57,880 nucleotides of DNA, from positions 1-57,880 of the IMG/VR virus record IMGVR_UViG_3300033388_001119. One strand, written 5' to 3'. Positions 692-55,573 of this stretch are shown here, one piece after another. This stretch comes from a virus. Taxonomy: Duplodnaviria; Caudoviricetes. The notes below the pieces were generated by a model. It was not told the origin of the DNA. It searched no databases and saw only the letters and a list, made by a program, of their open reading frames with translations. The position numbers were made by a program, and so were the translations under genes. Within the stretch, counting starts at the first letter, position 1, and the number at the start of each line of letters is the position of its first letter.

Positions 692-1328
692 TTTATATAT
701 GTATTGGTTAGTGGATAGGTAGGTTCCGATGTGTTCGACTTACATACATGTGAGTATGTATCTATCCATTGTAATTTGTTGACTCTCCGTTCTCTTGGTG
801 TCGGCAGTTTACTCTCTGCCCAGGACTCCTGGTTTCCGTCATATGTATCTGTTTGTCGATTGTATGCGTTTTGAATGTGTTTGAAGTTTTTTGTCTCTCC
901 CTCAGTTCAACTGTCTTGAGACCACACCCGTTACTTTCACTGCCCCCTACTCGATCGGTCGCACTCTCTCCTATGAGTGTGAACAGACCTTTTGGCTTGA
1001 ACTCAGCATGTAACCCTAACCCTATAAAGATTGTAGCTCACCTTTCATTGGTTGTTATACAATAACATACAGTTATTATACACGTTCCCAATGCACTGGA
1101 TTTTGTGTTTTATATAGGTTTCAAGAAATAAAGAACGTCATTACAATAACTTCAAAACATTACCATCTTGGGCTTATGTTTATAAATTGCTTACCTCGTT
1201 GGGCTTAGCTAATTGTACGAAATTAAAGAACGGATATTTTTGAAGGAAATAACAAACCTTATTTGGTGGGTGTGTTGCATTCGATTAACAACATACAAAG
1301 GTTTAAACCTTTACACCCATATATTAAA
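692..1328 (-). ncRNA. Candidate large structured non-coding RNA or leader, family not recognised
   Basis: About 630-nt gap in a gene-dense minus-strand run; many stems found by eye (712-718/762-768, 804-820, 820-832, 904-910/997-1003, 1155-1181, 1185-1214, 1267-1273/1313-1319). Confidence 0.55.
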
Positions 1329-1874
1329 TTATTTAGTGGTATTTATAAAATCTAAACCAATAGTCAAAGCACGTTTATTTAATTCTGCTTTTTTGTCTGC
1401 TGTAATTAGCCTATCAAGTTTTGATAATTCACGTTCCTTTTTAACTTTCTTAAATTCTTCATTGTTAGGGTTGGAAAATTTCGCCTTTCTTTTAAGTAAT
1501 TCAAGCATAAAATTTGCACTAAAATAACCTTTCTTTTCACCATATTCAATGGCTTTTTTATCGTCTGATAATTTGCAAGAGGTAACCTCATAACGATAAG
1601 CAAATGACAACAATTTAAAATTAAGTGCTGTACTTGTAACATTACTTTTAAAAGATGCATTTATTTCGGTGACATATTTATCTGTCAAATTTTGTGCTAT
1701 CTCAGAATTAAAAAACTTGTAAATTGCTTTTGGCGTTAAGGTTTCCTCTTTCCATAGATTAACTCAATTCTTTTTACTTTCAGTTAGTGCACTTACTTTT
1801 TTAGGTGTAAACTTAACTCCTTTTTTTGTCGTTGCTTTTTTAGTGTTAGCATTCACTTTTTTAGTTGTATTCAT
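1329..1874 (-). pseudogene. Lys-rich early protein frame (about 181 codons) interrupted by one in-frame TGA at 1766-1764
   Basis: Hand translation from ATG 1874: MNTTKKVNANTKK...ESKKN*VNLWKEETLTPKAIYKFF..., continuing in frame into the tracked ORF 1329..1688. Confidence 0.6.
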
Positions 1875-2320
1875 TTGATATATTTTTAATTGATTAATAC
1901 ACTACAATAATATGAACTAATATTTAATTAAACTAATATTAAACTAATTTTTTTTAGAATTATACTAAATTTGAAACATTATTTGGTAAACACAGGATCC
2001 ATCAGAATATAATTGTGCTAAATGCCTGGACTACAGAATATTATTTTAAACATTTGAGTTAACACAATATTTTATTTGGAATACTTATGCAGCTTTAACC
2101 TTTACCCCCTTATTAAGTGTAAAGTGTAGAGAATTATTAAAACAATATTGTAAAACATAAGTTAAGGGTAATAGATACCGCAATGAAAAAAGCTAAAAAA
2201 ATTCAAACCTTTTTAAAAAAAACAGCACCCCCCCAAACGAAAAAAAAACAATTTAAAAATCAACAACAACACAAAAAAACAACAATGAACCCAGTACTTC
2301 TATATATGCCATATTAATTA
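1875..2320. other. AT-rich divergence region between early (minus) and late (plus) units; candidate genome terminus or packaging region
   Basis: No credible ORF; strand switch; phased A-tracts and a C-run near 2185-2290; AACTAAT three times near 1915-1948. Confidence 0.4.
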
Positions 2321-2321
2321 T

Positions 2322-2329
2322 TACCTTTG
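2322..2329 (+). promoter_or_regulatory. Bacteroidota -7 promoter box TACCTTTG
   Basis: Matches TAnnTTTG, directly before ATG 2333. Confidence 0.7.
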
Positions 2330-2332
2330 TGT

Positions 2333-2470
2333 ATGGAGATATACTTAGAGAGTTTACTTAGATCGGGCATAGTAGTAGGAATAGAGTACTTCCCAGAAAC
2401 TGATAAAGTAAATTACCATGAACTATGTATCTCACTTCTTCTTGTCCGCCTCGTGTTTATATGGAAATAA
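2333..2470 (+). CDS. Small hypothetical protein (45 aa, MEIYLESLLRSG...)
   Basis: Hand translation; follows a promoter box. Confidence 0.65.
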   Translation: MEIYLESLLRSGIVVGIEYFPETDKVNYHELCISLLLVRLVFIWK

Positions 2471-2475
2471 TTTAG

Positions 2476-2483
2476 TATATTTG
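2476..2483 (+). promoter_or_regulatory. Bacteroidota -7 promoter box TATATTTG
   Basis: TAnnTTTG directly before ATG 2488. Confidence 0.7.
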
Positions 2484-2487
2484 CTCT

Positions 2488-2667
2488 ATGGATTATAACT
2501 ACAAAATAAAAAACGGAAGGCTTATAAATACTGCGCCTGAATTAGAGAATGGAATCTCTAGAGCTGCTAAACTTAGAAAGCAGATGAAAAGAGCAGAAAA
2601 AGTTAGAATGATTGCTGAAGGTAACGAGCTAGCAAACGCTAACATTAATTTATTTAAGAAGCTATAA
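2488..2667 (+). CDS. Small hypothetical protein (59 aa, MDYNYKIKNGRLINTAPE...)
   Basis: Hand translation; bounded by a promoter box and a terminator. Confidence 0.7.
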   Translation: MDYNYKIKNGRLINTAPELENGISRAAKLRKQMKRAEKVRMIAEGNELANANINLFKKL

Positions 2668-2714
2668 AATATTTCTTTCTCCATATATAGTTCTCGTTCT
2701 CTGAAAGAAGGAAA

Positions 2715-2751
2715 GGGTACTAGTTGTTAAAAGCTAGTGCTCTTTTTTTTT
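2715..2751 (+). terminator. Intrinsic terminator
   Basis: 11-bp stem 2715-2725/2732-2742 with G.U pairs, followed by T9. Confidence 0.7.
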
Positions 2752-2772
2752 ACACACATTAAAACATTTATT

Positions 2773-2931
2773 ATGAATATCGAAAAACAAATAGAAGACT
2801 TAAAGAAACAACTAACAGGTGATATGATGAAGGACCTGGATATACGTGATCAGATACATAACTTAGAAATGAAACTAAAAGGAGTAAAGCCTGAAGACTC
2901 CCATTTTGACTGTATTGGGTGTGGTTCATAG
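2773..2931 (+). CDS. Small protein (52 aa) ending in CIGCGS
   Basis: ORF track frame with start moved to ATG 2773 after an A-rich leader; C-terminal CxxC. Confidence 0.75.
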   Translation: MNIEKQIEDLKKQLTGDMMKDLDIRDQIHNLEMKLKGVKPEDSHFDCIGCGS

Positions 2932-3300
2932 TAACACTTTGTCATAACACTTAGTGTTGGTTTTCAACACGAATTGACACTTTTTTAAGTCTGACCACTT
3001 TCTGACCACTTTTTTACAGTACGAATTAGCCGACATTAAACGTTTTAAAACGGATATAATTATACTAGAATTCGAAAAAATGTTGATTCATAACACGAAC
3101 GTGTTGCTATAAATTTAAACTAACACTTTAATTAAAGTTACTTAACTTACTGATAATCAATATATTAATATAGTAGTAGTGTTAGAATGTTGGTTTTCTC
3201 ACACACAAGAGAAAAATAAAAAAGAAAAAGAGAAGTAAGTAAATAAAAAAAAGAAAGTATAGAGCGAAAAAGTAACATTCCAACACTTTGGGTGTTTTGA
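2932..3300. repeat. Non-coding region with about 10 AACAC/GTGTT words; candidate replication origin
   Basis: AACAC at 2933, 2946, 2966, 3092, 3122, 3282; GTGTT at 2954, 3101, 3179, 3292; tandem tctgaccactt near 2990-3011; A-rich stretch 3210-3270. Confidence 0.5.
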
Positions 3301-3318
3301 GATACTTTTCTATCTTTG
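3287..3318 (+). promoter_or_regulatory. Bacteroidota -33/-7 promoter for groEL
   Basis: TTTG (3287-3290), 20-nt spacer, TATCTTTG (3311-3318). Confidence 0.75.
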
Positions 3319-3344
3319 TGACATAACTACTTAAATTCAATGTA

Positions 3345-4907: not shown

Positions 4908-5140
4908 GACCAGTAATTTATGTTTTATCGATAATATGTGTTACCTTACTACTATTCAACTTCTACTTAATAGAGAAACTTGACAAGTCATTAGAAAGGG
5001 AAAGTGAATGGAAGTTTAAATATGAAACAAGCCAACGCATATACGACCTAACAAGAGATGAGGTTCTAAGATTAGAAGATGAAAATCAATTATTAGGATC
5101 TTTATTAGGTCAATATGAAGTTGACCCCACAATAGAATAA
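4904..5140 (+). CDS. Small membrane-anchored coiled-coil protein
   Basis: N-terminal hydrophobic helix then heptad pattern; ATGA overlap with groEL. Confidence 0.7.
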   Translation: MRPVIYVLSIICVTLLLFNFYLIEKLDKSLERESEWKFKYETSQRIYDLTRDEVLRLEDENQLLGSLLGQYEVDPTIE

Positions 5141-5142
5141 AA

Positions 5143-5400: not shown

Positions 5401-5407
5401 GTTTTTG

Positions 5408-39221: not shown

Positions 39222-39224
39222 GAT

Positions 39225-42200: not shown

Positions 42201-45200
42201 GGTGTATATAAAAAACCAAGTATCCTTCAAAGAATCAAACAAGGAGGTATCGGTACAGCTCAAGCGACTACAAAAGTTGCAGGAAGCGCCGCTATTGGTA
42301 CAGGTATTTCGTATGCCATAGAGTTATTTGATGAAACAATTTCTCCTGACGACCCCTTAATGGCCGAGCAGCTAAACAACTTACCAGAGGAGATTCAAGG
42401 AAACTCTAAAGCACTAACTACTTTTTACACATTTGCAGGATTAGGACTCTTAAACAAATCACTTGGTAAGCAATTAATGACAGACATAAAAGGTTTAAAA
42501 CCATTTGATGTATCCTTTAATCATTTCTTTAGAAGTCAAGAAGCTTATCGTGCTTGGAAGAATAAACAAGGAACTCCACAAGGCATGAAGCTACTAACCG
42601 AAGGCGCTAAAGATGTAATGGAGAATGGAACACCAGAACAAAAACAAAACTTAAAAAACCAAGAAGCTATATCCTCGTATAATAATGGTTTAACTGAGGC
42701 GAAAAATGAAATATATAAGTACGATAAAAAAGTAGAGGATTATAATAATTCTATTTCTGTTGTTAATAGTGTAAATAACAACCCTTCTAAAAAACCAAAC
42801 AATATACCTGTAAAGCCGGTGCCTAACGCTCAAGGAGACGGAGAGATAGAGGTTCCTGACAATGGAACTGAAGAAGGTAACTTGCAGAATATTGAAAATA
42901 TTATTTCCACTCCATCGAAAGATTTAGAAAACGCAGCTAAAGGAGAAGTGAAAGATGGAAACATTTCAGAAGAAAATGGAATGAATGGAATAAACGCTGT
43001 TCAAGATGTGTTAGCCACTAATAGTAAAGTAAAAGGAATTCAGAACACTAAAGTTAGAGCTAGAGCGGTCCAAGCACTACAGACTAAGAAAGAACTACAA
43101 AGAGAGTTAGATAAATTAAATGAGGACCACAAGAATGGTGTGGTGGCTAACTTTGAAGCAGAAAAAAAGAATCTAGAGGAAAAGATTAAAAACGTTGATC
43201 AACAAATTACTGAAATAGAAAGCTACGAAGAAACAGAAGCTGACTACGTAACTGACTTAATTAAAAATAAAGATAGACGCAATCACGATGTTAGTGGACC
43301 TGGAATCCCAGGGTTAAAGGAAAAGTATCCTAAGTTAGCGGAGTTCTTACAACAAAAACACGCAGAAGGTATGACACCTGTAGAGGCGTTAAAAGAATAT
43401 CAAAAGCAACCGCCTGAGGTTACAGAGGTTGAGTCAAAAGCAGAAGTTGTAGAGGGAGAGGGTGGCGCTCCAGTTAGTGGTAAACAGGACTTACCGACAG
43501 CATCAACTGAACAGTCAGCGGAAACCACACAAGAGAGTAATCAAAATGTAGAAGAAGTTGTACAAGAAACTGCACAAGAAACAGTAGTAAAACCTTCTAA
43601 ATTTACTTGGGATCCAATCCAAGAAGCATTTGTAGAATCAACTCCTCCCGAAACTTTAGAAGTATCTGTTAGTGGTAATTTTGATGGCTTAAGAACACAG
43701 GGGAAAGAGACTATGGATTTACGAGGTGACGCTAGAGGTAAAGATGGTGAGATAATAGAAACTAAAAACAAAGAAGGCGAAACAGTTTTAACCTTAGTAA
43801 AAGAAACTTACGACGCTGAGGGGAGACCTGGATATGTAGGCGTGTCAGTTACTTTACCTGAAGGTAGTACTAAAACAGCTGATGATGTTAGAGCTGAGCT
43901 AGAGAATCAAATGAATAAACTAACTAATGGGGAGGATATTTCAGGAAAAAGTTTTAGTAATATTAATGATTTAAACCCCTCAGCTGTAGATAAAAATGTA
44001 GAATTTAAAACACAAGAAGATGCCATTCAAGAGCCAAGCGCAGAGAGCGTACCTGTACAAGAATCACCCGGAGATAGCGAAGCGGTGGTCGAAAGCGTAC
44101 CCGAACCAGAGGTCGCTCCCGAAAAAGTTGAAGTCGAAGAAAAAATCGAAGTTGAGGAGACGCCGAAAGAAGAAGTAATAGAAGCAGAGGTAGTTGAAGA
44201 GCCTGTAGTAGATAATAAGGAACCTAGACAACCTGGTAAAGTAGAACAACCACCTAAAAGAGGTTCTCAAATAGACCAAGACTTAGACGCTGTTATTAAT
44301 AGCGGCACGAAAGGAGAGGCTTTATTAAGACAAAACTTAGAAGCTAAAGGATATAGAAAAGACCAAATAGATAGAGCGATTAGAAGAAAAGATAGAGAAG
44401 CTTTAGTCGAGTTAAAAAATCTAAAGAAAGACTTACAGTTACAAGGTAAAGCTAATAAGAAGTATACTGTTAAAGCCACGGATGAATTTAAGAAGCAGCT
44501 TAAAGATGTTATTGATAGATTAGCCGGTGATAGGAATATAAAATTTACTAAAGGCGAACTAAATAAAATACTAGAAGCGGCTACAGGTACCGAAATGCAA
44601 GGTCTTAAAGTGGAAAAAGCGATAGAGAAAGCGGTGGAAGTGGTAGAGAAAAGTGTTAAGCGTTCATTAAATAACAACATTAATGACTTACTTAAACTTA
44701 AAAATGTAGAGAAAAAACAAGGAAAAAGAAAGGTAGGAAAAATTAGCATTGACTCTAGAAGACAATTTAACGACTTGAGAGATGAGTGGAAAAAAATTAA
44801 TCCTAAAGATTTAACTATAGGTGAAATGGAGGCTATAGAAACTGAATTAAGTAGTTTGATTTATGAAGGTAAACTAGCTGTAGAGCCTGCGCAACGCATA
44901 ATAAGAGACACTAGAAGAAGTGTTAAAGGTCAAGTAAATGAATCACTATACAGTGATCAAACTCCAAAGACAGATTTTAAAAACGGGGTACCTGACGTAG
45001 AAGCTTATTTAAAAGATAATACTAATAATTTTGTGATTATAAACGGTCGTCAAGTTAGTTCTGTCTCTGGGCTTAATGATTTTATTAAAGACAATCCGTT
45101 TGTAGATGTATCTCAAGCTAAAGGATATGTAGCTACTACTCCAGCAGAAGCAGCTCAAGCAGGTAGACCTAGCATATTAAGCGGTTTAAAATATTGGACT

Positions 45201-47528: not shown

Positions 47529-47911
47529 TCATGCAGCTCGGCGTGACATCTTGCACACAATACTATGCATTTGTTTATTTCATCCATTATAGTTTGCTTA
47601 CCAAAACCTCTGTGAATTAAGTTACTCACTTCTGCTAGTTTGTCGTCATTTGGATGATGAAACTGTAAAGCTCTAACGCTAAATGAAGGGTGAGTTTCTT
47701 TAGAGTAACCGCATTTTGCACACTTTAATTTAGACTTATACTGAGCGGACCACACTCTATTAACTTCCCTGTAATGAGTTTTACCATGTTGATAACACTT
47801 TTTACATATATGTCTATAATATTTTTTACCTTTCTTAATACCTGCCGAGGGGAAGGATGTGGGAGGGAAGGACGCTGAACACTTCTTACACTTTCTTTTG
47901 TTCACACTCAT
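47525..47911 (-). CDS. HNH endonuclease with Zn-binding CxxC pairs
   Basis: CAKCG...LQFHH...KCIVLCARCHAELH. Confidence 0.88.
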   Translation of the reverse strand: MSVNKRKCKKCSASFPPTSFPSAGIKKGKKYYRHICKKCYQHGKTHYREVNRVWSAQYKSKLKCAKCGYSKETHPSFSVRALQFHHPNDDKLAEVSNLIHRGFGKQTIMDEINKCIVLCARCHAELHD

Positions 47912-48089
47912 AAGAGACAGAAGAGTTAATCTCTTTTAGTTTTAAAATAAGGGCCGAGATTTTACCCTGGGTAGTATAATACTCCTCATCTATTAACGAT
48001 TCATAAATGTCGTCCGTTAGGTCGTTGATCTCCTTCATAACGAAGTTGACATGGTTAACCTTGTGAAATTTTACACCGGACTTTTTCAT
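47886..48089 (-). CDS. Hypothetical protein (67 aa)
   Basis: ORF track. Confidence 0.75.
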   Translation of the reverse strand: MKKSGVKFHKVNHVNFVMKEINDLTDDIYESLIDEEYYTTQGKISALILKLKEINSSVSYECEQKKV

Positions 48090-48092
48090 AAA

Positions 48093-48269
48093 TCAATCAA
48101 TCTTAACTAATGAATCTATATTTACTTTAAACACTTTTTGGTTACCTTCTTTAATATAAGAAACTAATGCATAGTTAGGTGTTAAAGTTTTAATATAGAC
48201 TCTATTTCCGTTATGGGTTAGTCTACGTTTCATTAATTCATAATCAATTCCTTCTTCAAATGTAAACAT
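48093..48269 (-). CDS. Small hypothetical protein (58 aa; alternative start 48233)
   Basis: Hand translation MFTFEEGIDYELMKRRLTHNG...; fills the gap. Confidence 0.6.
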   Translation of the reverse strand: MFTFEEGIDYELMKRRLTHNGNRVYIKTLTPNYALVSYIKEGNQKVFKVNIDSLVKID

Positions 48270-48286
48270 AATTTTCGAATTTATTT

Positions 48287-48598
48287 TTAATTATCCTTTA
48301 AATAGATGTCAATTTCATCTAAACTCAAGTCTATAAGGGAATATTTAAGCCTAGGAGCATACTCCATCTCTGTTTCGTAATAAGGAGTGGTCTTGTGACC
48401 CATCCCTGTGTTTTTATCTACATGGTAATTGTAGGGCTCCCATATTATTCTATATCGTCTTACAGCTCCTGATGGTATGTTGTGACGCCTAGCCGTGGCG
48501 TATACACTTCTCCCTTTTAACATGTCTTTTATAACACTTAACTTCTCCTCTTCAGAAAGATAGTAAGGGATTCCAGCTGGAATTTTATTTTGTTTCAT
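48287..48598 (-). CDS. Helix-turn-helix protein
   Basis: SEEEKLSVI...GRSVYATARRHNIPSGAVRRY. Confidence 0.7.
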   Translation of the reverse strand: MKQNKIPAGIPYYLSEEEKLSVIKDMLKGRSVYATARRHNIPSGAVRRYRIIWEPYNYHVDKNTGMGHKTTPYYETEMEYAPRLKYSLIDLSLDEIDIYLKDN

Positions 48599-49002
48599 AC
48601 CATAGATCTTACAGGGGTATCACTTAACTCCACTCTTTTTCCTTCTAATAATAAGTCTAGAAACTTATCAGACGATACAACCTTATAGTGGTCGACAATA
48701 TACGAATTTTCCTTATTACTTTCAAAGTATATTTCTACAAATATCTGCTCACCATCAATATTGAATACATGCCCTAGGTTCCATACTTTATATCCGTCTG
48801 CATAATTAGCATAAAGAATATCTCTTGGAGACATAGGCTCCTGTTTAGATATATCATTGGTTATACGTTTTAATAAGTCTTCAAAATGTTTCCATTCGAT
48901 AACCCCATGTATTGTCCCATCGTTTAATATTTCTATTAAATCATATGTTATTGTTATTTCTATTGCGCTCATTTCCTTTGTATATTTCTGTTTTACATCC
49001 AT
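48595..49002 (-). CDS. Hypothetical protein (135 aa; start uncertain)
   Basis: ORF track. Confidence 0.7.
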   Translation of the reverse strand: MDVKQKYTKEMSAIEITITYDLIEILNDGTIHGVIEWKHFEDLLKRITNDISKQEPMSPRDILYANYADGYKVWNLGHVFNIDGEQIFVEIYFESNKENSYIVDHYKVVSSDKFLDLLLEGKRVELSDTPVRSMV

Positions 49003-49210
49003 GTTTCTCTATCTCTTTTAATCGATACTCTTGTAGTTTAGATAACTTACCGGTTGGTGTTTTTATTTCTGAAAACAAAACATCCGCACCTGGTGGTATA
49101 GCTATTAAATCAGGAATACCGTTCTTGTTTGTTTTTATTAATTTAATTACATAGAACCCTTGTGATTCTAATTCTTTTATTCTCTTTGCTTGTATTTGTT
49201 GTTCGGTCAT
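48941..49210 (-). CDS. VRR-NUC family nuclease
   Basis: TEQQIQ...GIPDLI...FSEIKTPTGKLSKLQ. Confidence 0.88.
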   Translation of the reverse strand: MTEQQIQAKRIKELESQGFYVIKLIKTNKNGIPDLIAIPPGADVLFSEIKTPTGKLSKLQEYRLKEIEKHGCKTEIYKGNERNRNNNNI

Positions 49211-50439
49211 ATAGCAAAGTCTTTCTTAAAGTGTTTTAATGTATAATCTTTTTTATTATTAACAGCCCTGTAGATTTTATCTTCGATACCTCCTTTAGAG
49301 AATACCCAATACACTTTATTATATGTTCTATCTTTGGTTGTCATTCGATCACGACTCTGCCAATAACTAGTAGCGCTAAAGTCTATGTTGTAATATACTA
49401 AATATTTAGCCTCCCTCAAAGATATACCTTCCCTACCACTCACAATTTGTAAAGCAATATTCTTACCGGTGGAGTTGAATTCTTCTAAGTCTGTGGTTAA
49501 GTTGTCTTCAAATACTTCTTTAAGTAGCCTGAGTTCAGCCTGAAACTTATAGAATATACCTATCTTTACATCCTTAAATTTTTCCGCAATAAACTTAGCC
49601 TTAGCCTTATCTATTATCATACTGTTTTTAGATTCAAATATTACTGTGCCAGAGTACATTTGATGCAGCTTCTGCATAACTTTAACACCTGTGTCTGCCA
49701 ATATGACCTCCTCTTTACCTTCTATAACCTTATCTCGCTGTAGTTGTTTACATAGTTTGTAGGTGGTAGGATTCATATCTACGTATAATATCTCCTCATC
49801 AATAGATGAAGCAAACCCAGCTTCTTGCTGAGTAAAGGAAATAGTATAAGGTTTCATAGCGTCTATAACTAAGCTGCGTTTAGTGTATGAATAATCGGTT
49901 GTTGTTTGAATACCATACCTAATTGTTTTCTTATTGACATAATCATTAGCCCATCCGTAAAAGTTTTTATAAGATTTAAAAGGGTTGTTTTTATATCCGT
50001 ATACCTGGTGATACATTTGAGAAAAACTTTCTGGTGTAGGTGTACCTGACATTAAAATCAACTTAGAACCCCATGTTCTTAGGTCTGCTTTTAGTCTCTT
50101 AGCCCTTGATGAAGGCTTCGGAAACGCACCTAATGAATGAGCCTCATCAGCTACAATAACATCAGGATGAAAATGTAAATCAATCTTATGGGAGCTTTCG
50201 TAGTTGATTACTTGTAAATCAAACCCAGGGTTTAACATTTTGTAGTCGTACTCAATACTTGATATCGCTTTCTTTTTAGTAAGGAACAATACACGATTAA
50301 CGTTTAGTTTATCACAGATACCTAAAGCAGTAAGCGTCTTGCCTGTCCTAACCTCCATTGCTAAATACAGGAGTCCATGTTCTTGTATTATATCTGTTCC
50401 TTCATTTATTATTCTCGTTTGATAGTCTCTAAATTCCAT
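49207..50439 (-). CDS. SF2 (SNF2-like) helicase
   Basis: RTGKT, VADEAH, MSGTP, GREGISL, QSRDR motifs. Confidence 0.9.
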   Translation of the reverse strand: MEFRDYQTRIINEGTDIIQEHGLLYLAMEVRTGKTLTALGICDKLNVNRVLFLTKKKAISSIEYDYKMLNPGFDLQVINYESSHKIDLHFHPDVIVADEAHSLGAFPKPSSRAKRLKADLRTWGSKLILMSGTPTPESFSQMYHQVYGYKNNPFKSYKNFYGWANDYVNKKTIRYGIQTTTDYSYTKRSLVIDAMKPYTISFTQQEAGFASSIDEEILYVDMNPTTYKLCKQLQRDKVIEGKEEVILADTGVKVMQKLHQMYSGTVIFESKNSMIIDKAKAKFIAEKFKDVKIGIFYKFQAELRLLKEVFEDNLTTDLEEFNSTGKNIALQIVSGREGISLREAKYLVYYNIDFSATSYWQSRDRMTTKDRTYNKVYWVFSKGGIEDKIYRAVNNKKDYTLKHFKKDFAI

Positions 50440-50705
50440 TCTTTTTCTAATAATTTTCTCTCGTTAAATAATCTCTGACACCTTTCGTATAACTCTAATT
50501 CTTCATAGTGTTCAATTAATATAGTATATATATCTTCCTTATGGTCGTCACTTTTAAAACCGTTATAAGGATCGAATAAGAACATATGAACCCTATCGTC
50601 ATCTTCTAGGATATCTTCTATTTCTTTGTTTCGTACCAACACTTGATAGGTGTTGTCTATTATTTCATCTAGGTGTTCGTAAAACCAGTGGTCGTCTAAT
50701 TCCAT
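50409..50705 (-). CDS. Acidic hypothetical protein (98 aa)
   Basis: ORF track; E.YE.C C-terminal motif. Confidence 0.75.
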   Translation of the reverse strand: MELDDHWFYEHLDEIIDNTYQVLVRNKEIEDILEDDDRVHMFLFDPYNGFKSDDHKEDIYTILIEHYEELELYERCQRLFNERKLLEKEWNLETIKRE

Positions 50706-53068
50706 AAGGCAGCTTGAGTTATAGGTTCCTTGAAAATAAAGTATATTCCTGTGTTGTCCCTACCTTGCTCCGCTTCTTTTTTAGTCATGTGTTTACACGC
50801 AATTTTAATCCACTTATTCCATTTACTATGAGATAGTTTACTATAGTCTGGGTTCTGTAAAACAAACTCAATCCTTACAGAGTTACTATTTATCTTGGTA
50901 TCGTACGGAAATAACTCTTTATTTTCAGCTATAAAGGTAACGAATTCTCTGCAAGTCTCAGCCTCAAACTTCCTATCTTTAAGATTTTTAAACGGCGCTG
51001 ATATCAATCCTTTACTTAAAAACAATTGCAAACACTTAACCATATAGTTATCGAAACTGCACCATTCATCTGAGTCCCAGTCATTAAAGAACAGCTTACC
51101 AAACTCATCTAAGGGAGTAAACTCTTTAGAGTAGTGAGCGTAAAATTCTAATTCCCACTTTCTTCTTTCATATGAATTACCCTTACCCTTTATGGCGTAG
51201 TTAGTGGTGATAACAACTTTAGGTGAGTCTTTGAAAGCTATCTTGATAGCGTCCTTGTTTTTCTTTTCCAAAGTAATACCCTCAGTAATTAAGCTAAACA
51301 ACCTTTCAAACTCAAAGTTTTTCTTTACATCATCAAAGGTTAATATTTGAGTATCAACGGATACTAATTGGTAAGCAAAGGAGCGTTCAAATAAGAAAGC
51401 TTTACCATCTATGGTAACATTCTTTTTTAATTGAGATACTCCTTGAACAAATAAACCTTTGCCTGTTCCACCCTCAGGATCATCAGATATAACCTCATCA
51501 TTTATAATTACAGCCGGGCAATACCCAGCATTCTTAAATCCATGTAGTAAAAAACCTATCGTACTTCTTACTGCTAAAATTCTATTTAAATTAGACTCAC
51601 TAACGTTAGAAATAAACTTAGAATAATCACAGTCTATATCATCACATATTTCAAATTCCCTATCAATTATCTGGTCCTTCCAAACAAACCCTGGTAAGTT
51701 ATCGTATTCAATTAAGTTTAAATTATTTTTAGTAACTTCCAGGGCTACGTTTTTGTAGTACAAGTATGAGTGGGTGGTGGTGTCGCTCATAAAATGTATT
51801 TGCTTGTAAGATAAAAGAGATAAGAAATCGTCTTTAAAATACTTAGTTCTTTCAGCAAAGTGGTTGTAAATAGATAAGTCTTCTAGGTTAATTAGGAAGT
51901 CTAGCACATGGTCTTTAATCCTGTCCTCGGTAGTAATATCAATTACATTAGAGGTTATAGAAATAAAAATGTAGTTCTCACTCCCTTCTGGTTTGTACTT
52001 ATAAAAGCCAACCTTCTCTAGATATTCCTTAAACTTGAACGGTATTAAGCTGACCACTCCTCGTTCTGATTTTACCCAGAAGTCTGAGCTGCCTATCTTC
52101 TCTTCTTCGTTCTTTATAACTAGGTCTATAGTTTCGCCCTCGAACCCTTGTGTTTTGAGCTGAGAGCGTATCTCCTTTTTTGGCACACCTACTCGTAACT
52201 TTCTACTAACCTCCTCTCTAGCGCTTGTGTCTTCAAAGAAACGTGTGTTAAAGTTTGCTACATTAGCATATGCACTATTAATAGTGGTCTGCATTTCTGA
52301 AGAAGAAAACCCATTACCTATGTATTCGCTTAATACATAAACAGCTGATGTCTTATCTATGCCGAAATCATTTAAAGCAGAGGCTAAAATAAATATATTA
52401 TTATTTCGTTGCCCCTCAATCATTCCGTATTTACTTTCCCACCATTTTTTTAATCGCTTGATTATAGTGTCGTGTTCAGTTAAAACAAACGTAGGTTGTG
52501 CTGATGTATACTCTAGCTGTTCATGACTTACAATCTCTAAGCTATCATAAACTTTGCTCTCTTTATTTATATAAATATCAGGGTCGTAACTTTCATAACA
52601 AACTCTAGATATATTTTTAGACGTTGGGTCAAACTCATCAATGTTGTAATAGTCTTGCAAAGACATAAAATACTTGACATGATTCTCAGGATCCTGCGGT
52701 ATCTTAACTATAACCTTTAAACCATTGCCACTTGGTGAGGTAAAAACTGAATATGAATATTCATCACTAGTTAAAGTGTTGCGTGTTTTAAGTAAGTCTT
52801 TAGTAGATTTAAATCCATCAAAGTCTAAACAAATAAAACCGCTGTGTTGAAGTATTGACTTATCTTTTCTTTCACTAAACTCTCCGCTAAAACATACAGC
52901 TGGTAGCTGTTGCTTAATAAGGTTTCTTTTCTCCTTGTCTTCCTCTTTGCGAATTGTTTCAATTAAGCCCTTACTTTTCCCCTCTTTAATTCTATTTAAT
53001 ATAGGTCCTATATCACGATAGAAGGGAACAGATGTGTCTTTAATACTTTTAAATATAGTTACTCGCAT
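50696..53068 (-). CDS. Primase-helicase (BT4734/VirE-N-like primase, PriCT, P-loop helicase)
   Basis: KQQLPAV.FSG, ICLDFD, SPSGNGLK, GQRNN, GGTGKG, TFDD, ITTN. Confidence 0.85.
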   Translation of the reverse strand: MRVTIFKSIKDTSVPFYRDIGPILNRIKEGKSKGLIETIRKEEDKEKRNLIKQQLPAVCFSGEFSERKDKSILQHSGFICLDFDGFKSTKDLLKTRNTLTSDEYSYSVFTSPSGNGLKVIVKIPQDPENHVKYFMSLQDYYNIDEFDPTSKNISRVCYESYDPDIYINKESKVYDSLEIVSHEQLEYTSAQPTFVLTEHDTIIKRLKKWWESKYGMIEGQRNNNIFILASALNDFGIDKTSAVYVLSEYIGNGFSSSEMQTTINSAYANVANFNTRFFEDTSAREEVSRKLRVGVPKKEIRSQLKTQGFEGETIDLVIKNEEEKIGSSDFWVKSERGVVSLIPFKFKEYLEKVGFYKYKPEGSENYIFISITSNVIDITTEDRIKDHVLDFLINLEDLSIYNHFAERTKYFKDDFLSLLSYKQIHFMSDTTTHSYLYYKNVALEVTKNNLNLIEYDNLPGFVWKDQIIDREFEICDDIDCDYSKFISNVSESNLNRILAVRSTIGFLLHGFKNAGYCPAVIINDEVISDDPEGGTGKGLFVQGVSQLKKNVTIDGKAFLFERSFAYQLVSVDTQILTFDDVKKNFEFERLFSLITEGITLEKKNKDAIKIAFKDSPKVVITTNYAIKGKGNSYERRKWELEFYAHYSKEFTPLDEFGKLFFNDWDSDEWCSFDNYMVKCLQLFLSKGLISAPFKNLKDRKFEAETCREFVTFIAENKELFPYDTKINSNSVRIEFVLQNPDYSKLSHSKWNKWIKIACKHMTKKEAEQGRDNTGIYFIFKEPITQAALWN

Positions 53069-53073
53069 ATTCT

Positions 53074-53148
53074 AAAAAAGGGTGGCGAGCGTGTATTAAT
53101 CAGATATCAAATCACAAACAACTATGTTTATAAAATGCCACCACCCTA
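53074..53148 (-). terminator. Terminator-like stem with an unusually large loop
   Basis: Minus strand agggtgg...ccaccct followed by a T-run; loop over 50 nt. Confidence 0.55.
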
Positions 53149-53163
53149 AATTTTAAAAGTTAA

Positions 53164-53457
53164 TTAAAACGGTAAGTCCTCAGCAGGAGGCATCGCTCCA
53201 TTACTAGATGATACTTCCCCTTCTTTCTCAGCCACAGCAATCGCTCCGTCTGTCCATACTACCTTTCCGTTACCTATGTAGTTACGTTTCTTTTTAGCCT
53301 CCCTTTCTTCTTTTGTGGGGGTCTCGTACGTGCCTACGTTGTTACCGAATTTTGTCTCGTCATTTACTGCGGTTGTAACTAATAGTAATTTACCGTCTTT
53401 TAATCTAGACTTATCTACTTTAGTTAAGTCAATGTAATGATTAATAATTGTTGCCAT
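53164..53457 (-). CDS. Probable single-stranded DNA-binding protein
   Basis: Acidic EDLPF tail; sits after the recombination genes. Confidence 0.7.
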   Translation of the reverse strand: MATIINHYIDLTKVDKSRLKDGKLLLVTTAVNDETKFGNNVGTYETPTKEEREAKKKRNYIGNGKVVWTDGAIAVAEKEGEVSSSNGAMPPAEDLPF

Positions 53458-53467
53458 AATTTAAAAT

Positions 53468-54229
53468 TTATAGTGTTTGGTTAATAAAATATTGATTGAT
53501 ATCTTCGGGAGCATTCGCAACGAAAAACTTCTCGTAAACCTCAATCGCTCTGAATACTTTTTGTCTTCCGTATTCAAGGAAGTCTTCTGAACATTCAAAT
53601 AATCCTGTCTTGCAACTGTTTTTCTCAACCACAATAAACTTTAATGGCCTATCAAAGAACTGACCATAAAGCCATGCTTGGCTGTCGTAATTATATTTGC
53701 GTGCAGAGTATTTAAAATCCTCTATTGATGAAGTTGTTTTGAGATCTATTAAGCAATCTGGCGCTACAATATCAGCCTTTCCTTTCCACAAATGACCTCC
53801 TATTTCTTTTATAATAGGTTGTTCAAATTTATTTTTAGGGGAATACATCATATCATAGAACACAAAATTCATTCTAATAGATTTAGCCATCTGAGACAAC
53901 ATATCTATCTCTTTGCTAAGCAACGCTTGCTTGCCAAACTCTTTATAGATTTTAGTATTTCTACTTGAGCAATCTACAATGTCGTATTCGCTTAGCTTTT
54001 GTGGCTCTAATAAATGTGTGTGGAAGTAACGACCTTGCAACATAGCGACTGTGGCGTCCTTTGTTTTTCTAAAGTCCTTAGGGTTCCCTAATAAAGAACC
54101 TATATCAGAATTAGATAAATAATTTCTACCAAAGTCACCATAGTAATGAGTGTCATCCTCTAATTTCTTGATGTCCTTCTTGGTGAAAGCTGCAGCCATA
54201 GGCTTAGTATTAAGTTCGTCTAAAATCAT
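53468..54229 (-). CDS. RecE/ExoVIII-like PD-(D/E)XK exonuclease
   Basis: LSNSDI, GRYFH...LEP, KGKAD...IDLKTT, YDSQAWLY. Confidence 0.85.
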   Translation of the reverse strand: MILDELNTKPMAAAFTKKDIKKLEDDTHYYGDFGRNYLSNSDIGSLLGNPKDFRKTKDATVAMLQGRYFHTHLLEPQKLSEYDIVDCSSRNTKIYKEFGKQALLSKEIDMLSQMAKSIRMNFVFYDMMYSPKNKFEQPIIKEIGGHLWKGKADIVAPDCLIDLKTTSSIEDFKYSARKYNYDSQAWLYGQFFDRPLKFIVVEKNSCKTGLFECSEDFLEYGRQKVFRAIEVYEKFFVANAPEDINQYFINQTL

Positions 54230-54813
54230 ACCGCTACATATTTATTTAATTCTTCCTGAACTGTTGGTGCTATCTTATATTTCTGAGATAAAGAATCAAT
54301 TATCTTATTCATTCCCATCTTTTTGTTTTCAATAACCCAATTCAAAACCTTCTCCCAATTATCATCCTCAATCTCTAACTTCTTTATAACTCTCTTAACT
54401 ACCGGTGCGGTGTCGATTAAATCTTCACCTGCATATACTGACAGTCCTAATCCATGTAAAGCTAATGCTTTAACTGTTGATCGCTGTATAGAAGTATTAA
54501 CATCGAAGCTTGTTATTTGGTCTAGCTTTATAGACTTTGGCCTACCAGCTGTATTCATAATTGGCAAGTAATCAATGTACTCTACACCATTTATCTCTAC
54601 ACCTACTTTAACCCAAGCTGTATGTCCATCAGTAAAGTAATTCATACCTTCTGTTGTTTCGTATACTATTCTTCTTAAGGTTGGATAATGTTTCTTAGCA
54701 AATGCCCAAGCGTGTGCCCAGGATAAGTAAGATAGTTGTCCTTTCTTTTCTACTTTCTCTGCTACTTTGACAGCAGAAAGCGTGTCAAATACTGACTTTG
54801 TTGTTGTTCCCAT
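54226..54813 (-). CDS. Sak3/DUF1071-like single-strand annealing protein
   Basis: LSYLSWAHAW...QRSTVKALALHGLGLSVYAGEDL. Confidence 0.85.
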   Translation of the reverse strand: MGTTTKSVFDTLSAVKVAEKVEKKGQLSYLSWAHAWAFAKKHYPTLRRIVYETTEGMNYFTDGHTAWVKVGVEINGVEYIDYLPIMNTAGRPKSIKLDQITSFDVNTSIQRSTVKALALHGLGLSVYAGEDLIDTAPVVKRVIKKLEIEDDNWEKVLNWVIENKKMGMNKIIDSLSQKYKIAPTVQEELNKYVAV

Positions 54814-54833
54814 ATATATTTATTTTATGATTA

Positions 54834-55202
54834 TTATTTCCATCTACTTATAAACTCAGCCAACGAGTTATCCGTAGATAGTTTATCTTGAATTTGCTTT
54901 ACTCCGTATAAAATTGTGGAGTTGGCCGCATTGTAACCATTAGTCTTCATACATCTCGATATTGTAGCTAACTTATACCCATTCTCTTTAAGTATATAGT
55001 AAATTATGTATCGTGATTGTGTGATGTGGTTGTCTTTAGTTTTTTGAAATAATTCTGAAGGCTCAGTTCTAGTTATATTAGATACTGCTTCTACTACTTC
55101 ATCAAACAAATCGTAGTCTACTATCATTTTATTATATTTTAAGTAATCCTCTTCTGTGGGGGGATATCTTGTGTCTGCCCATATTTCCTTAGTTCTCTGC
55201 AT
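54834..55202 (-). CDS. Stand-alone DnaA domain-IV-like DNA-binding protein
   Basis: SRYIIYYIL...LATISR...NSTILYGVKQI parallels DnaA RQIAMYL...DHTTVLHA. Confidence 0.65.
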   Translation of the reverse strand: MQRTKEIWADTRYPPTEEDYLKYNKMIVDYDLFDEVVEAVSNITRTEPSELFQKTKDNHITQSRYIIYYILKENGYKLATISRCMKTNGYNAANSTILYGVKQIQDKLSTDNSLAEFISRWK

Positions 55203-55218
55203 AGGTTTAATATTTATT

Positions 55219-55226
55219 CAAATGTA
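55219..55226 (-). promoter_or_regulatory. -7 promoter box TACATTTG
   Basis: Intergenic, upstream of ATG 55202. Confidence 0.55.
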
Positions 55227-55514
55227 TTATAATTTATTATCAATTCCAAATATTTTATTTATATTTTTTCCTAGGTCTGAATAGTTCGGGCATTCCTTAC
55301 ATAAGCCTGTGATTTCATTGACTAATTGTATAATACCTACCGCCATCATCTTCTCACTACCTGTGCCGCTGTTGAGTTTTTTATGTGCTTTATTAACTAA
55401 ATCTGTTATCTTTTTATTAACTTTATCTGTTTGGTCTTCACATTTTTCTTCAACAGTCTTAGGTTTGTAATACTCCTTTGTTTGCCTAAGTTCATTAAGT
55501 GTACGTTTCTTCAT
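55227..55514 (-). CDS. Hypothetical protein (95 aa)
   Basis: ORF track. Confidence 0.75.
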   Translation of the reverse strand: MKKRTLNELRQTKEYYKPKTVEEKCEDQTDKVNKKITDLVNKAHKKLNSGTGSEKMMAVGIIQLVNEITGLCKECPNYSDLGKNINKIFGIDNKL

Positions 55515-55573
55515 AGTGTTTAAATTATCCTTCCCTCATCAATGATGAGTGTGAACAAGGTAATTATTTTTAT

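What the first reader, a model, noticed from the sequence alone, without database searches (positions are those of the whole stretch)
964..55558. Dispersed 13-mer ATGAGTGTGAACA: sense at Met codons, antisense in non-coding RNA regions
Seen: exact copies at 973-985(+), 39423-39435(+), 47899-47911(-) and 55545-55557(+), plus a one-mismatch copy at 39225-39237(+). Four exact copies of a 13-mer in 58 kb are very unlikely by chance on a rough 4^-13 estimate. Relative to the transcribed strand, three copies read Met-Ser-Val-Asn in frame: the HNH start, the giant gene start and giant Met67. The other two are reverse complements lying in structured non-coding parts of the early minus-strand transcript. 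The match extends: 964-985 equals the HNH initiation region (47920-47899) at 20 of 22 nt, and one difference is G.U-compatible. 55543-55558 matches 39421-39436 at 16 of 16 nt. Inference: early trans-acting antisense elements that occlude start codons of a nuclease and an ejection protein. Alternative: a non-palindromic DNA binding or nicking site.
Basis: partly seen in the sequence, partly recalled or inferred. Interest (0 to 1): 0.9.

Follow-up and report, generated by a model that had tools for sequence, protein, structure and literature searches.

The report
Conserved 13-mer signal in marine phages
A 13-letter DNA word that this phage carries five times is kept letter for letter, several times per genome, by a whole group of uncultured marine phages, so it is a real signal of unknown function rather than chance.

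Summary
In detail: ATGAGTGTGAACA occurs exactly at 973(+), 39423(+), 47899(-) and 55545(+), and with one mismatch at 39225(+). Shuffles expect 0.10 matches, and 0 of 100 shuffles gave 5. It is also a family trait. Ten related virus records of about 27-63 kb carry 3-5 exact copies each, in two separate clades of the primase tree. Five complete relatives carry none, and 401 Flavobacteriaceae genomes show no enrichment.

Selection acts on the nucleotides. The word is pushed into a helicase loop by a one-codon insertion, into a conserved primase block (Y-T-Y becomes H-T-H), into HNH starts and into linkers of the giant virion gene. Intergenic copies always lie on the late-gene strand, mostly 2-16 nt after an early gene's stop.

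The start-codon occlusion idea does not generalise. Most sense copies in relatives sit at internal Met codons, variants are not compensatory, no complementarity extends beyond the word, and the flanks are not structured.

My reading is a compact 15-bp (K-13mer-A), strand-specific DNA recognition site whose reader is unidentified. It most likely acts as a polar protein-binding or nicking site (confidence about 0.4). The rivals are an antisense RNA pair, a late-strand transcription signal and a recombination junction. Only wet-lab or raw-read data can decide between them.

The parts
973..985 (+). Exact copy A, in the ORF-poor region 700-3300. It lies on the late-gene strand and is antisense to the early (-) transcription unit, between ORFs 356-691(-) and 1329-1688(-).
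   Evidence: The only ORF from its ATG is 30 codons. The flank is not significantly structured.
39225..39237 (+). One-mismatch copy (ATGAGTGTAAACA) at codon 1 of the 2767-aa giant virion gene.
39423..39435 (+). Exact copy at codon 67 of the giant gene (in frame, M-S-V-N). It is followed by a low-complexity NTPNTPDTP linker and forms a local GAGTGT/ACACTC hairpin.
47899..47911 (-). Exact copy on the early strand (the 'flipped' copy). It is codons 1-4 of the HNH endonuclease gene 47525-47911(-) and overlaps the last codons of the 67-aa ORF 47886-48089(-).
   Evidence: phrog_2255 HNH endonuclease, E 8e-21; HNH homologues at 52-61% identity keep the identical 13 nt at their start.
55545..55557 (+). 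Exact copy E. It is intergenic and on the late strand, 16 nt after the stop of the C5 methyltransferase gene 55574-56851(-) and 30 nt before the start of the 95-aa ORF 55227-55514(-).
   Evidence: Orthologous copies are in L116 (1191), G426 (9060) and G427 (538).
39225..47528 (+). Giant late gene (2767 aa, no family match). It is the last gene of the late block and hosts two copies.
47525..57707 (-). Early/replication block that hosts or borders the other copies. It encodes HNH, an SNF2-type helicase (49207-50439), a PrimPol-SF3 helicase (50696-53068), a PDDEXK exonuclease, the Sak SSAP, a DnaA_C-like HTH (54834-55202) and a C5 methyltransferase.

Best explanation
The 13-mer is the core of a compact, non-palindromic, about 15-bp cis-acting signal, (G/T)-ATGAGTGTGAACA-A. 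A lineage of roughly 50-63 kb phages, apparently of Flavobacteriia, keeps it at 3-6 places per genome. All copies fall in the third of the genome that runs from the distal late genes (the giant virion gene) through the early/replication block.

I think it is read as DNA, in a strand-specific way, by a sequence-specific protein that I could not identify. It most likely acts as a polar site on the late-gene strand: a fixed nick or entry site of the kind known from T5 and phiKMV-like phages, or a directional protein barrier. One copy, or a few, faces the other way near the junction where the early and late blocks converge.

Shown here:
- the copies are real and conserved, and selection acts at the nucleotide level;
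- the copies are strongly biased to one strand;
- the signal has no second element, no local hairpin and no host-genome counterpart.

Inferred:
- that the effect is polar;
- the biological role, which may be organising late replication, recombination, packaging or the early-to-late switch.
For: **Family-wide multi-copy conservation.**
- Exact copies per record are: window 4, G006 3, G009 4, G010 3, G012 4, G014 4, G015 4, G019 contig 9 5, G426 5 and G427 3.
- The reversed-word control gave 0 or 1 per record.
- L048 and L020 were found through the primase, not the motif.
- In the 88-sequence primase tree the carriers form two separate clades.

**Nucleotide-level selection.**
- The helicase carries the word in a variable loop with a one-codon insertion, and the 13 nt are invariant while neighbouring codons vary synonymously.
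- In L116/G426 the word lies antisense in the conserved primase block, where D-x-Y-T-Y-S becomes D-V-H-T-H-S.
- HNH N-termini differ in non-carriers (MKSETQVC, MSSKPKQKVC). Four carriers share the identical 13 nt.

**Strand bias.**
- All 15 early-region intergenic copies tabulated lie on the late strand. So do the late intergenic copies in G010 and G427.
- 12 of the 15 lie 2-16 nt after an early stop codon.

**Compact, stand-alone signal.**
- Over 45 non-redundant contexts, only positions -1 (G/T) and +13 (A) carry information within 50 nt on either side.
- There is no local complementary partner above background.

**Not a host repeat.**
- 401 Flavobacteriaceae genomes gave 29 exact hits, never more than 2 per genome. 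The reversed control gave about 17 by my count.

**Evidence against RNA-level accounts.**
- Both orientations are conserved, and no conserved small ORF starts at the motif ATG (6-37 codons).
- Variants are not compensatory.
Against: **No reader was found.**
- Among all window ORFs of 45 aa or more, only the C5 methyltransferase is present in 6 of 7 carrier genomes and absent from 5 of 5 complete non-carriers.
- That enzyme also occurs in non-carriers L060 and L085, and is missing from carrier G010.
- The HNH gene is absent from clade B.
- The primase C-terminal domain and the DnaA_C-like protein do not co-vary with the motif.

**The flipped copies need an extra assumption.** The copies at helicase codon 47, the HNH start and DnaA_C-like codon 18 are just as strongly conserved as the majority orientation, so a simple one-strand model does not cover them.

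**Sense copies in coding sequence keep the ATG in frame.** Of the 19 sense rows, 18 are in frame 1. The window's HNH-start copy is scored there against the overlapping 67-aa ORF as frame 2, and it is codon 1 of the HNH ORF. One search adds three more frame-1 copies. A pure DNA site explains this only by assuming that M-S-V-N is the best-tolerated reading.

**Nicks may not be under such selection.** Nicks in T5 are dispensable (recalled), which fits poorly with selection strong enough to change a conserved primase block.

**No physical evidence could be obtained.** No data on nicks or binding exist here, because only assembled contigs are available.
Confidence: 0.4

Rival explanations
1. Sense/antisense RNA pairing, a generalised form of the first reader's idea. 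Early transcripts carry UGUUCACACUCAU in their intergenic spacers. Late (giant gene) and some early mRNAs carry AUGAGUGUGAACA. The resulting 13-16 bp duplexes block translation or trigger cleavage, coupling early and late expression without any protein reader.
For: - Every carrier genome that covers both blocks has the word antisense in early transcripts. It also has a sense copy in a late gene, or immediately upstream of one, or in an early gene.
- No co-distributed protein reader exists, as this model expects.
- In the window the HNH and giant starts are the two best predicted partners among 60 initiation regions.
- Sense copies always keep ATG in frame.
- Relatives process early transcripts with hammerhead ribozymes at equivalent intergenic places, so RNA-level devices are used in this family.
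Against: - In relatives the sense copies are mostly internal (helicase codon 47; giant codons 190-1776), so start-codon occlusion is not the general mechanism.
- Variants in G010 and G011 and the window's 39225 copy create mismatches, not compensatory or wobble pairs.
- Complementarity does not extend beyond 13-16 nt, and extensions occur between same-strand pairs as often as between opposite pairs.
- L048 lacks any early-strand sense copy in the early-distal region held.
- Copies antisense inside primase and helicase would have to be explained as additional 'antisense' sites.
- No RNA data are available.
Confidence: 0.15
2. A compact transcription signal read in the ATGAGTGTGAACA direction, that is a late-type promoter or initiator recognised by an unidentified phage factor. 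Copies on the late strand inside the early block would fire back through early genes, giving antisense shut-off, and on toward the late operon. Copies in or before distal late genes would boost them. Flipped copies would give late expression of distal early genes.
For: - Every copy points along a gene block or toward the late operon.
- All late-region copies are in sense orientation.
- The copies in G010 and G427 lie 13-17 nt upstream of the start of the same roughly 260-aa late gene in two different clades.
- Early intergenic copies abut the 3' ends of early genes, with 12 of 15 within 2-16 nt of the stop. That is where an antisense promoter would sit.
- T4 late promoters (recalled) are similarly compact and are few-letter, single-element signals.
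Against: - There is no second promoter element within 50 nt on either side.
- The word does not resemble the Bacteroidetes -7/-33 consensus (recalled).
- No RNA polymerase or sigma factor was recognised among the ORFs scanned.
- Copies that include a gene's own start codon (the HNH and the window's giant gene) could not yield an mRNA for that gene.
- No transcript data are available.
Confidence: 0.15
3. A recombination junction or hotspot. The word would be a short shared sequence at which modules are exchanged between co-infecting relatives, by the phage's Sak/exonuclease system or after cleavage. It may also be spread by gene conversion, which would explain genome-specific variants shared by several copies.
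For: - Ends of blastn homology blocks between seven clade-B genomes pile up within 20 nt of motif copies: 33 observed against 5.2 expected if uniform.
- Protein-level blocks in the giant gene begin at M-S-V-N.
- Flank types are recombined on the two sides of the word.
- Three G011 copies share the variant ATGGGTGTGAACA, and the G010 early copies share a T at position 5.
Against: - The excess comes mainly from the giant-gene copy (22 of the 33), which follows a length-variable linker where alignments would break anyway.
- The helicase and exo-SSB copies show no block ends.
- 13-16 nt is short for annealing-type recombination (recalled).
- No site-specific recombinase was recognised.
- This account does not explain the strand bias.
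Confidence: 0.1
4. Origin iterons for the phage PrimPol-helicase, as with P4 alpha protein and its type-1 repeats, or a DnaA-box-like site for host DnaA or the phage DnaA_C-like protein.
For: - The reverse complement TGTTCACACTCAT contains the P4 type-1 repeat TGTTCACA/TGTTCACC. It shares 10 contiguous nt with P4 crr.
- The 790-aa protein is a PrimPol plus SF3 helicase by fold, with best PDB matches the ASFV PrimPol and the SaPI5 primase-helicase at E 1e-13 to 1e-11.
- Its model ends in a helix-helix-helix-beta-hairpin domain.
- With the conserved flanking base, the word reads TTGTTCACA, one step from the relaxed DnaA-box consensus (recalled).
Against: - Copies are single and kilobases apart, and the short cores are not clustered or enriched.
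- The C-terminal domain of the primase in clade B resembles that of non-carrier L026 more than it resembles the window's.
- DnaA_C-like proteins of the two carrier clades are only 26-31% identical, no closer than to non-carriers.
- Neither 9-mer clusters in three Flavobacteriaceae genomes, and both are at or below the reversed control.
Confidence: 0.08

Closest known systems
Localised single-strand interruptions (nick consensus sites) of T5 and phiKMV-like phages (recalled; not tested against their sequences here)
   Same: A handful of copies per genome of a conserved non-palindromic consensus. The consensus is shared by related phages, lies predominantly on one strand, and is placed without regard to coding or non-coding context.
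   Different: No nick has been shown here and no nickase co-occurs with the word. Copies are confined to about one third of the genome and include conserved flipped copies. Selection looks stronger than expected for dispensable nicks.
Phage P4 type-1 iterons (ori/crr) bound by the alpha primase-helicase
   Same: The core TGTTCAC(A/C) is shared. Both phages encode a large primase plus SF3 helicase replication protein. P4 also needs sites kilobases apart (ori and crr).
   Different: P4 iterons are 8-mers clustered 5-6 per 100-300 bp. Here single 13-15-mers are dispersed. The primase C-terminal domain does not track the motif, and there is no sequence homology to any solved chain.
Single-element phage promoters and regulator boxes (T4 late promoter TATAAATA, T4 MotA boxes, PeSL elements of T4-like phages; recalled)
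   Same: Short, repeated, orientation-specific words that sit in tight gaps after early genes or inside upstream coding sequence, and that mark module boundaries.
   Different: There is no accompanying -10/-7 element and no recognisable sigma or activator. Many copies are antisense to the local genes, and some include a gene's own start codon.
Phage antisense RNA regulators (for example lambda OOP, P22 sar; recalled)
   Same: There is perfect complementarity between a segment of one transcript and the initiation region of another gene in this window.
   Different: Known examples are cis-encoded opposite their target. Here the copies are dispersed and mostly not at initiation codons in relatives, and they show no compensatory change.
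Genome-specific palindromes plus type III hammerhead ribozymes in the early intergenic gaps of sister lineages
   Same: They have the same kind of location, the gaps of the early operon. The arms GAGTGTG/CACACTC of some relatives (L029, L052) resemble the core of the word.
   Different: Those elements are perfect hairpins, each lineage has its own arms, and some are followed by a ribozyme. The 13-mer is not palindromic, has no local partner and matches no Rfam family.

Membership tests
Trans-acting antisense RNA that occludes start codons | Complementarity to the translation initiation region of the target | tested here: met
   In the window only. HNH (-37.2 and -33.3 kcal/mol) and giant codon 1 (-22.9 and -19.3) rank first and second of 60 initiation regions. 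This follows by construction from the shared word.
Trans-acting antisense RNA that occludes start codons | The target copy stays at an initiation codon in relatives | tested here: not met
   Copies sit at helicase codon 47, giant codons 190, 786 and 986-1776, DnaA_C-like codon 18 and late-gene codon 269. Only the HNH copies are at codon 1.
Trans-acting antisense RNA that occludes start codons | Compensatory or wobble-compatible change between partners | tested here: not met
   The variants in G010 (position 5 G>T), G011 (position 4 A>G; position 12 C>A) and the window's 39225 copy (position 9 G>A) are not matched in the partner copies.
Trans-acting antisense RNA that occludes start codons | Both partners are transcribed | not testable with these tools
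   No RNA holder is listed, and the runs are kept as contigs only.
P4-type origin iterons | Several iterons clustered within a few hundred bp | tested here: not met
   GTGAACA and TGTGAACA occur at or near the expected count and are never clustered in 7 genomes.
P4-type origin iterons | Replication protein with primase, SF3 helicase and a C-terminal DNA-binding domain whose specificity tracks the iteron | tested here: inconclusive
   The fold is PrimPol plus SF3 helicase with a C-terminal helix/beta-hairpin domain. The domain's sequence in clade B is closer to non-carrier L026 than to the window's.
Bipartite or T7-like promoter | A second conserved element, or a conserved block of 20 bp or more around the start site | tested here: not met
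   Outside the 13-mer, only -1 and +13 (and weakly -3) carry information within 50 nt on either side, in 45 contexts.
Bipartite or T7-like promoter | A cognate phage RNA polymerase or sigma factor | tested here: inconclusive
   None was recognised in the ORFs scanned with Pfam and PHROGs. Several large ORFs have no family.
Site-specific nick sites (T5 / phiKMV type) | A few copies of a conserved asymmetric consensus, mostly on one strand, shared by relatives | tested here: met
Site-specific nick sites (T5 / phiKMV type) | A physical single-strand break at the consensus in virion DNA | not testable with these tools
   Only assembled contigs are available, and no molecule ends are reported.
Site-specific nick sites (T5 / phiKMV type) | A nicking enzyme that co-occurs with the sites | tested here: not met
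   The only candidate tested was the HNH. It is absent from clade B genomes and present in non-carriers L026 and L028.
Host-genome signals (Chi, uptake sequences, REP-like repeats) | Over-representation in the host chromosome | tested here: not met
   29 exact hits in 28 of 401 Flavobacteriaceae genomes, against about 17 for the reversed word, with at most 2 per genome. The true host species is unknown.
Known RNA families (ribozymes, riboswitches, sRNAs) | A match to an Rfam covariance model | tested here: not met
   There are 0 matches at gathering score in the whole window. Nothing relevant appears at E <= 5 in 1-3400 or at E <= 1 in 47400-57880.

The most novel reading that the evidence does not exclude
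The word needs no protein reader. It would be a self-recognising nucleic-acid signal, in which copies in opposite sense on early and late transcripts (or on the two DNA strands during recombination-dependent replication) find each other by 13-16 bp pairing. That pairing would couple the early block to the giant virion gene, so that one word both encodes Met-Ser-Val-Asn and serves as the address. Because it is self-recognising, it could be kept identical across phages whose proteins are only 50% alike, and it could spread by gene conversion.
Probability: 0.12. Interest if true: 0.85.

Novelty: new variant of a known kind. Interest (0 to 1): 0.6.

Why it matters
A 13-nt word is held invariant across phage clades whose core proteins share only about 50% identity. 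It is forced into a conserved primase block and into a helicase loop. That marks an essential cis-acting step in the life cycle of an abundant, uncultured group of marine phages, apparently of Flavobacteriia, and no component of that step is known. Sister lineages use genome-specific hairpins and hammerhead ribozymes at the same kind of place, so the family offers a natural comparison of alternative solutions. In practice, the word is a simple marker for recognising members of this lineage in metagenomes. It is also a precise target for the first experiments: nick mapping, footprinting and 5'-end mapping.

Tried and rejected
**Chance.** Rejected.

**Small genes starting at the motif ATG.** Rejected. 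Intergenic copies open ORFs of only 6-37 codons with no conservation.

**Local hairpin partner.** Rejected. The best local match to the complementary word within 70 nt on either side averages 8.06 of 13, against 7.75 in 5000 random windows. 4 of 18 sites reach 9 or more, against a null fraction of 0.15. RNAfold of 18 sites shows no common structure.

**Structured non-coding RNA around copies A and E.** Not supported.

**Known RNA families.** None found.

**Hammerhead-like reading of TGATGAG.** Rejected on inspection. The base before it is rarely C, and no stem II or GAAA follows.

**Constant spacing of about 8 kb between the giant-gene copy and the flipped copy.** Rejected. The spacing is 6,970 nt in G426 and 10,302 nt in G427, against 7.2-8.5 kb elsewhere.

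**HNH endonuclease as the universal reader.** Rejected.

**C5 methyltransferase as reader.** There is only a loose association.

**Primase wH domain or DnaA_C-like protein as reader.** Neither co-varies with the motif.

**DnaA-box clustering in hosts.** Nothing seen.

**Host-genome enrichment.** None.

**Searches that gave nothing.**
- Relatives of the giant N-terminus in viral contigs.
- Relatives of the phage GroEL in genome contigs.
- HNH relatives' records, which show no motif excess over the control.
- blastn of 1-8000 against named phages, which gave only a groEL hit.
- PDB sequence search with the primase, 0 hits.
- Pfam on the giant and five other large ORFs, nothing usable.

**Sequencing runs.**
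- 20 DNA holders are listed, and no RNA holder.
- Contigs of 4 runs were laid on 39000-57880. No joints, ends or structural variants appear at the copies. Contigs cannot show nicks, starts or strands.

**Literature.**
- A search for the P4 iteron word found no paper holding it (listing only).
- For the hammerhead/bacteriophage search I saw only the listing and abstract starts. I opened no paper, and supplements were not consulted.

**Ascertainment caveat.**
- G008-G015 and L102-L220 were found by scanning for the 14-mer, so one copy per record is there by construction. Multiple copies are not.
- My counts of 'independent placements' are my own grouping of orthologous sites.
- Gene calls in relatives are a crude longest-ORF set. 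In one search it mislabels a few rows. It scores the window's HNH copy against the overlapping 67-aa ORF, and it lists G012 58713 as intergenic because that giant ORF runs over the contig end.

Full report
**Observation.** ATGAGTGTGAACA is present exactly at 973-985(+), 39423-39435(+), 47899-47911(-) and 55545-55557(+). A one-mismatch copy lies at 39225-39237(+).
- Shuffles that keep dinucleotide content expect 0.10 matches, and none of 100 shuffles reached five.
- It is the only 13-mer with four copies in the window.
- The three copies that lie in the sense of a gene read Met-Ser-Val-Asn. They are codon 1 of the HNH ORF and codons 1 and 67 of the 2767-aa ORF.
- The claim that the two non-coding copies lie in structured RNA is not borne out, with z-scores of +0.44, -0.51 and -1.40.

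**Context.** The window is a whole IMG/VR virus record, 57,880 bp and estimated 95% complete.
- Late genes run on the plus strand from about 3.3 kb to 47.5 kb. They include GroEL/GroES, terminase, portal, virion proteins, a 2011-aa virion protein and the 2767-aa giant gene.
- The early/replication block runs on the minus strand from about 1.7 kb, across the record end, down to 47.5 kb.
- That block encodes a C5 methyltransferase, a weak DnaA_C-like HTH, the Sak annealing protein, a PDDEXK exonuclease, a 790-aa primase-helicase, an SNF2-type helicase and an HNH endonuclease.
- The 790-aa protein folds as a PrimPol plus SF3 helicase with a small C-terminal helix/beta-hairpin domain.
- The nearest named phages infect Flavobacterium and other Flavobacteriia, and they are distant.
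- Contigs of this family are binned mostly in Flavobacteriaceae and other Bacteroidota MAGs.

**The word is a family trait.**
- Eighty relatives were fetched through the primase, independently of the motif. Among them, L020 has one exact copy and L048 has three.
- A scan of viral contigs for the 14-mer led to further records.
- Whole-record counts of exact copies are: G009 4, G010 3 (two are the same repeated contig end), G012 4 and G008 2. G011 has 2 plus four one-mismatch copies. G014 has 4 and G015 has 4 (3 of 5 handles were held).
- One contig of MAG G019 has 5, and G426 has 5 and G427 has 3. The reversed word gave 0 or 1 per record.
- Five complete or near-complete relatives without the word have no exact copy.
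- In a tree of 88 primases the carriers form two separate clades. Clade A holds the window, L116/G426 and L190/G427/L020. Clade B holds L210, L048, G009-G015 and the G019 contig.
- Non-carriers lie between the two clades. Many of them carry genome-specific 18-20-nt palindromes instead.

**Where the copies are**.
1. Intergenic copies in the early block.
   - All 15 tabulated lie on the late-gene strand, so the early transcript would read TGTTCACACTCAT.
   - 12 of the 15 begin 2-16 nt after the stop codon of the upstream early gene. The distance to the next start varies from 12 to more than 500 nt.
   - The window's copy at 55545 (16 nt after the methyltransferase stop) has orthologues in L116, G426 and G427.
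2. Copies in coding sequence in the sense of the gene.
   - These are helicase codon 47 (clade B) and HNH codon 1 (clade A, four diverged genes).
   - They are also the giant gene at codons 1 and 67 (window), 190 (G426), 786 (L048) and 986-1776 (clade B).
   - Two more are codon 18 of a DnaA_C-like gene and codon 269 of a 320-aa late gene (G019 contig).
   - All are in the frame that reads ATG as Met.
3. Copies antisense inside genes. These are helicase codon 126 (L048) and primase codon 102 (L116/G426).
4. Two late intergenic copies, 13-17 nt upstream of the same roughly 260-aa late gene in G010 and G427.

No copy lies in the first 35-38 kb of the late block.

**Selection acts on the nucleotides.**
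- In the helicase the word occupies a variable loop and comes with a one-codon insertion. Its 13 nt are identical in five clade-B genomes while neighbouring codons vary synonymously. The window, L048 and ten non-carriers have unrelated sequence there.
- In L116/G426 the antisense copy changes the conserved primase block D-x-Y-T-Y-S to D-V-H-T-H-S.
- HNH proteins of non-carriers begin MKSETQVC or MSSKPKQKVC. Four clade-A HNH genes, 52-61% identical in protein, begin with the same 13 nt.
- Over 45 non-redundant contexts, the only informative flanking positions within 50 nt are -1 (G or T), +13 (A) and weakly -3. The signal is therefore about 15 bp and stands alone.

**Test of the antisense-RNA reading.**
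- In this window the pairing is feasible. It picks out the HNH and giant starts among 60 initiation regions, but that restates the sequence identity.
- In relatives most sense copies are internal, so start-codon occlusion cannot be the general mechanism.
- The natural variants are not compensated. These are G010 early copies with T at position 5, three G011 copies with G at position 4, one G011 copy with A at position 12, and the window's own 39225 copy.
- Flank identity beyond the word is slight, and it occurs between same-strand pairs as well as opposite pairs.
- L048 has no early-strand sense copy in the part held.
- Expression could not be examined.
- A weaker form of the idea survives: 13-bp pairing between early spacers and late or early messages, without start-codon occlusion. 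Every carrier has both senses in transcribed regions, and no protein reader turned up.

**Tests of other readings.**
- *Promoter.* There is no second element and no polymerase or sigma factor was recognised. Some copies contain the start codon of the gene they would have to serve.
- *Hairpin or terminator.* There is no local partner above background and no common fold.
- *Known RNA families.* None match.
- *P4-like iterons.* The reverse complement shares TGTTCAC(A/C), and 10 contiguous nt, with the annotated type-1 repeats of P4 crr, and the replication protein is of the same general class. However, the copies are single and dispersed, and the primase C-terminal domain does not track the motif.
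- *DnaA box.* The likeness is recalled, not tested, and no clustering of either 9-mer appears in three Flavobacteriaceae genomes.
- *Host repeat such as Chi.* 29 exact hits occur in 401 Flavobacteriaceae genomes, against about 17 for the reversed word.
- *HNH as reader.* It is absent from clade B and present in non-carriers.
- *Presence/absence screen.* I screened all window ORFs against 7 carrier and 5 non-carrier genomes. Only the C5 methyltransferase stands out, and the association is loose.
- *Recombination junction.* Ends of homology blocks are enriched near copies, 33 against 5.2 expected. However, 22 of them are at the giant-gene copy, which follows a length-variable linker.

**Interpretation.** The firm facts are these.
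- The word is about 15 bp, asymmetric and stand-alone.
- It is kept at 3-6 places in one third of the genome.
- It is under strong nucleotide-level selection in both coding and non-coding DNA.
- Intergenic copies are always on the late-gene strand, and one or two conserved flipped copies lie inside distal early genes.

These facts fit best with a site read on DNA in a strand-specific manner. The closest known pattern is the conserved nick consensus of T5 and phiKMV-like phages, or a polar protein-DNA complex. I put about 0.4 on a DNA-level protein recognition site of this kind. The remaining weight goes to sense/antisense RNA pairing (0.15), a compact late-strand transcription signal (0.15), a recombination or gene-conversion junction (0.1) and an origin/DnaA-type site (0.08). 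The missing reader and the in-frame ATG of every sense copy are the main loose ends for my preferred reading.

**Novelty and limits.**
- I found no description of this word. The only literature searches were made, both read as listings.
- It looks like a new variant of a known kind of element, a dispersed phage cis-signal, in a lineage with no cultivated member.
- All functional statements are inferences from sequence.
- Gene calls in relatives are crude.
- Many sites are orthologous, so the numbers of independent events are my estimates.
- The clade-B genomes were found through the word itself.

Noticed in passing
L083:597-651, 981-1035, 2027-2081 (+): A non-carrier relative has three type III hammerhead ribozyme matches (E 1.7e-7 to 1.2e-5, scores 36-43, below the gathering score of 48.5). 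Each lies directly after a copy of its genome-specific palindrome GTGAGGGTTCAAACCCTCAC in early intergenic gaps. L029 and L026 show the same CTGATGAG-containing sequence after their palindromes. Early transcripts of this family seem to be cut by ribozymes.
   Followed up: partly
L052 (8 copies), L083 (9), L041 (11), L026 (5), L075, L082, L029; Each non-carrier lineage has its own perfect 18-20-nt palindrome repeated through the early block, often about 20 nt upstream of a start codon (L052). The arms of L029 and L052 (GAGTGTG/CACACTC, GAGTGTC/GACACTC) resemble the core of the 13-mer.
   Followed up: partly
G014:9120-9160, with orthologues in G009, G010, G011, G015 and L189: Between the exonuclease and an SSB-like gene there is a conserved AAGGAGTCAG followed by a hairpin. 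Its stem covaries (GCGCTG/CAGCGC, GGTGCTT/AAGCACC, AGTAGCTT/AAGCTAC) and its loop CTCCAACT is fixed. It may be a translational operator of the SSB-like gene.
   Followed up: no
G012, G014, G015, G011, 25-40 nt after the copy that precedes the methyltransferase region: A conserved block of about 35 nt, AATCCTTAGTTGTCGCTAATGTAGGCC(G/A)TTGTAATGC, of unknown nature. It lies upstream of the MPNH... gene.
   Followed up: no
window:700-3300: An ORF-poor region of about 2.6 kb lies between the divergent early and late blocks. Positions 700-1000 are C/T-rich on the plus strand (AT skew -0.40 in 1-1000). Two small ORFs (2499-2684(-), 2737-2931(+)) have homologues in relative G421.
   Followed up: no
window:3345-4907 and 5143-5400; also 17628-18200: The phage encodes a GroEL (520 aa), a GroES and a second GroES-like protein. 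GroEL is shared by carriers and non-carriers.
   Followed up: no
window:39225-47528 and giant genes of G009-G015: The giant virion gene is a mosaic. There are at least three unrelated types of C-terminal module of about 1220-1330 aa, joined to N-terminal parts of 785-1775 aa through a length-variable acidic/Thr-rich linker. Near-identical phages by primase (G014, G015) carry different giant genes.
   Followed up: partly
G019 (a Flavobacteriaceae MAG): contigs behind L241, L242, L252 and contig C9: One MAG holds at least three 62-65 kb contigs of this phage family. This is probably a binning artefact, but it is a hint at the host.
   Followed up: no
L029:14488-14560: A tRNA gene (Rfam 68 bits) sits in a non-carrier relative, immediately followed by one of its GAGTGTG...CACACTC hairpins.
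   Followed up: no
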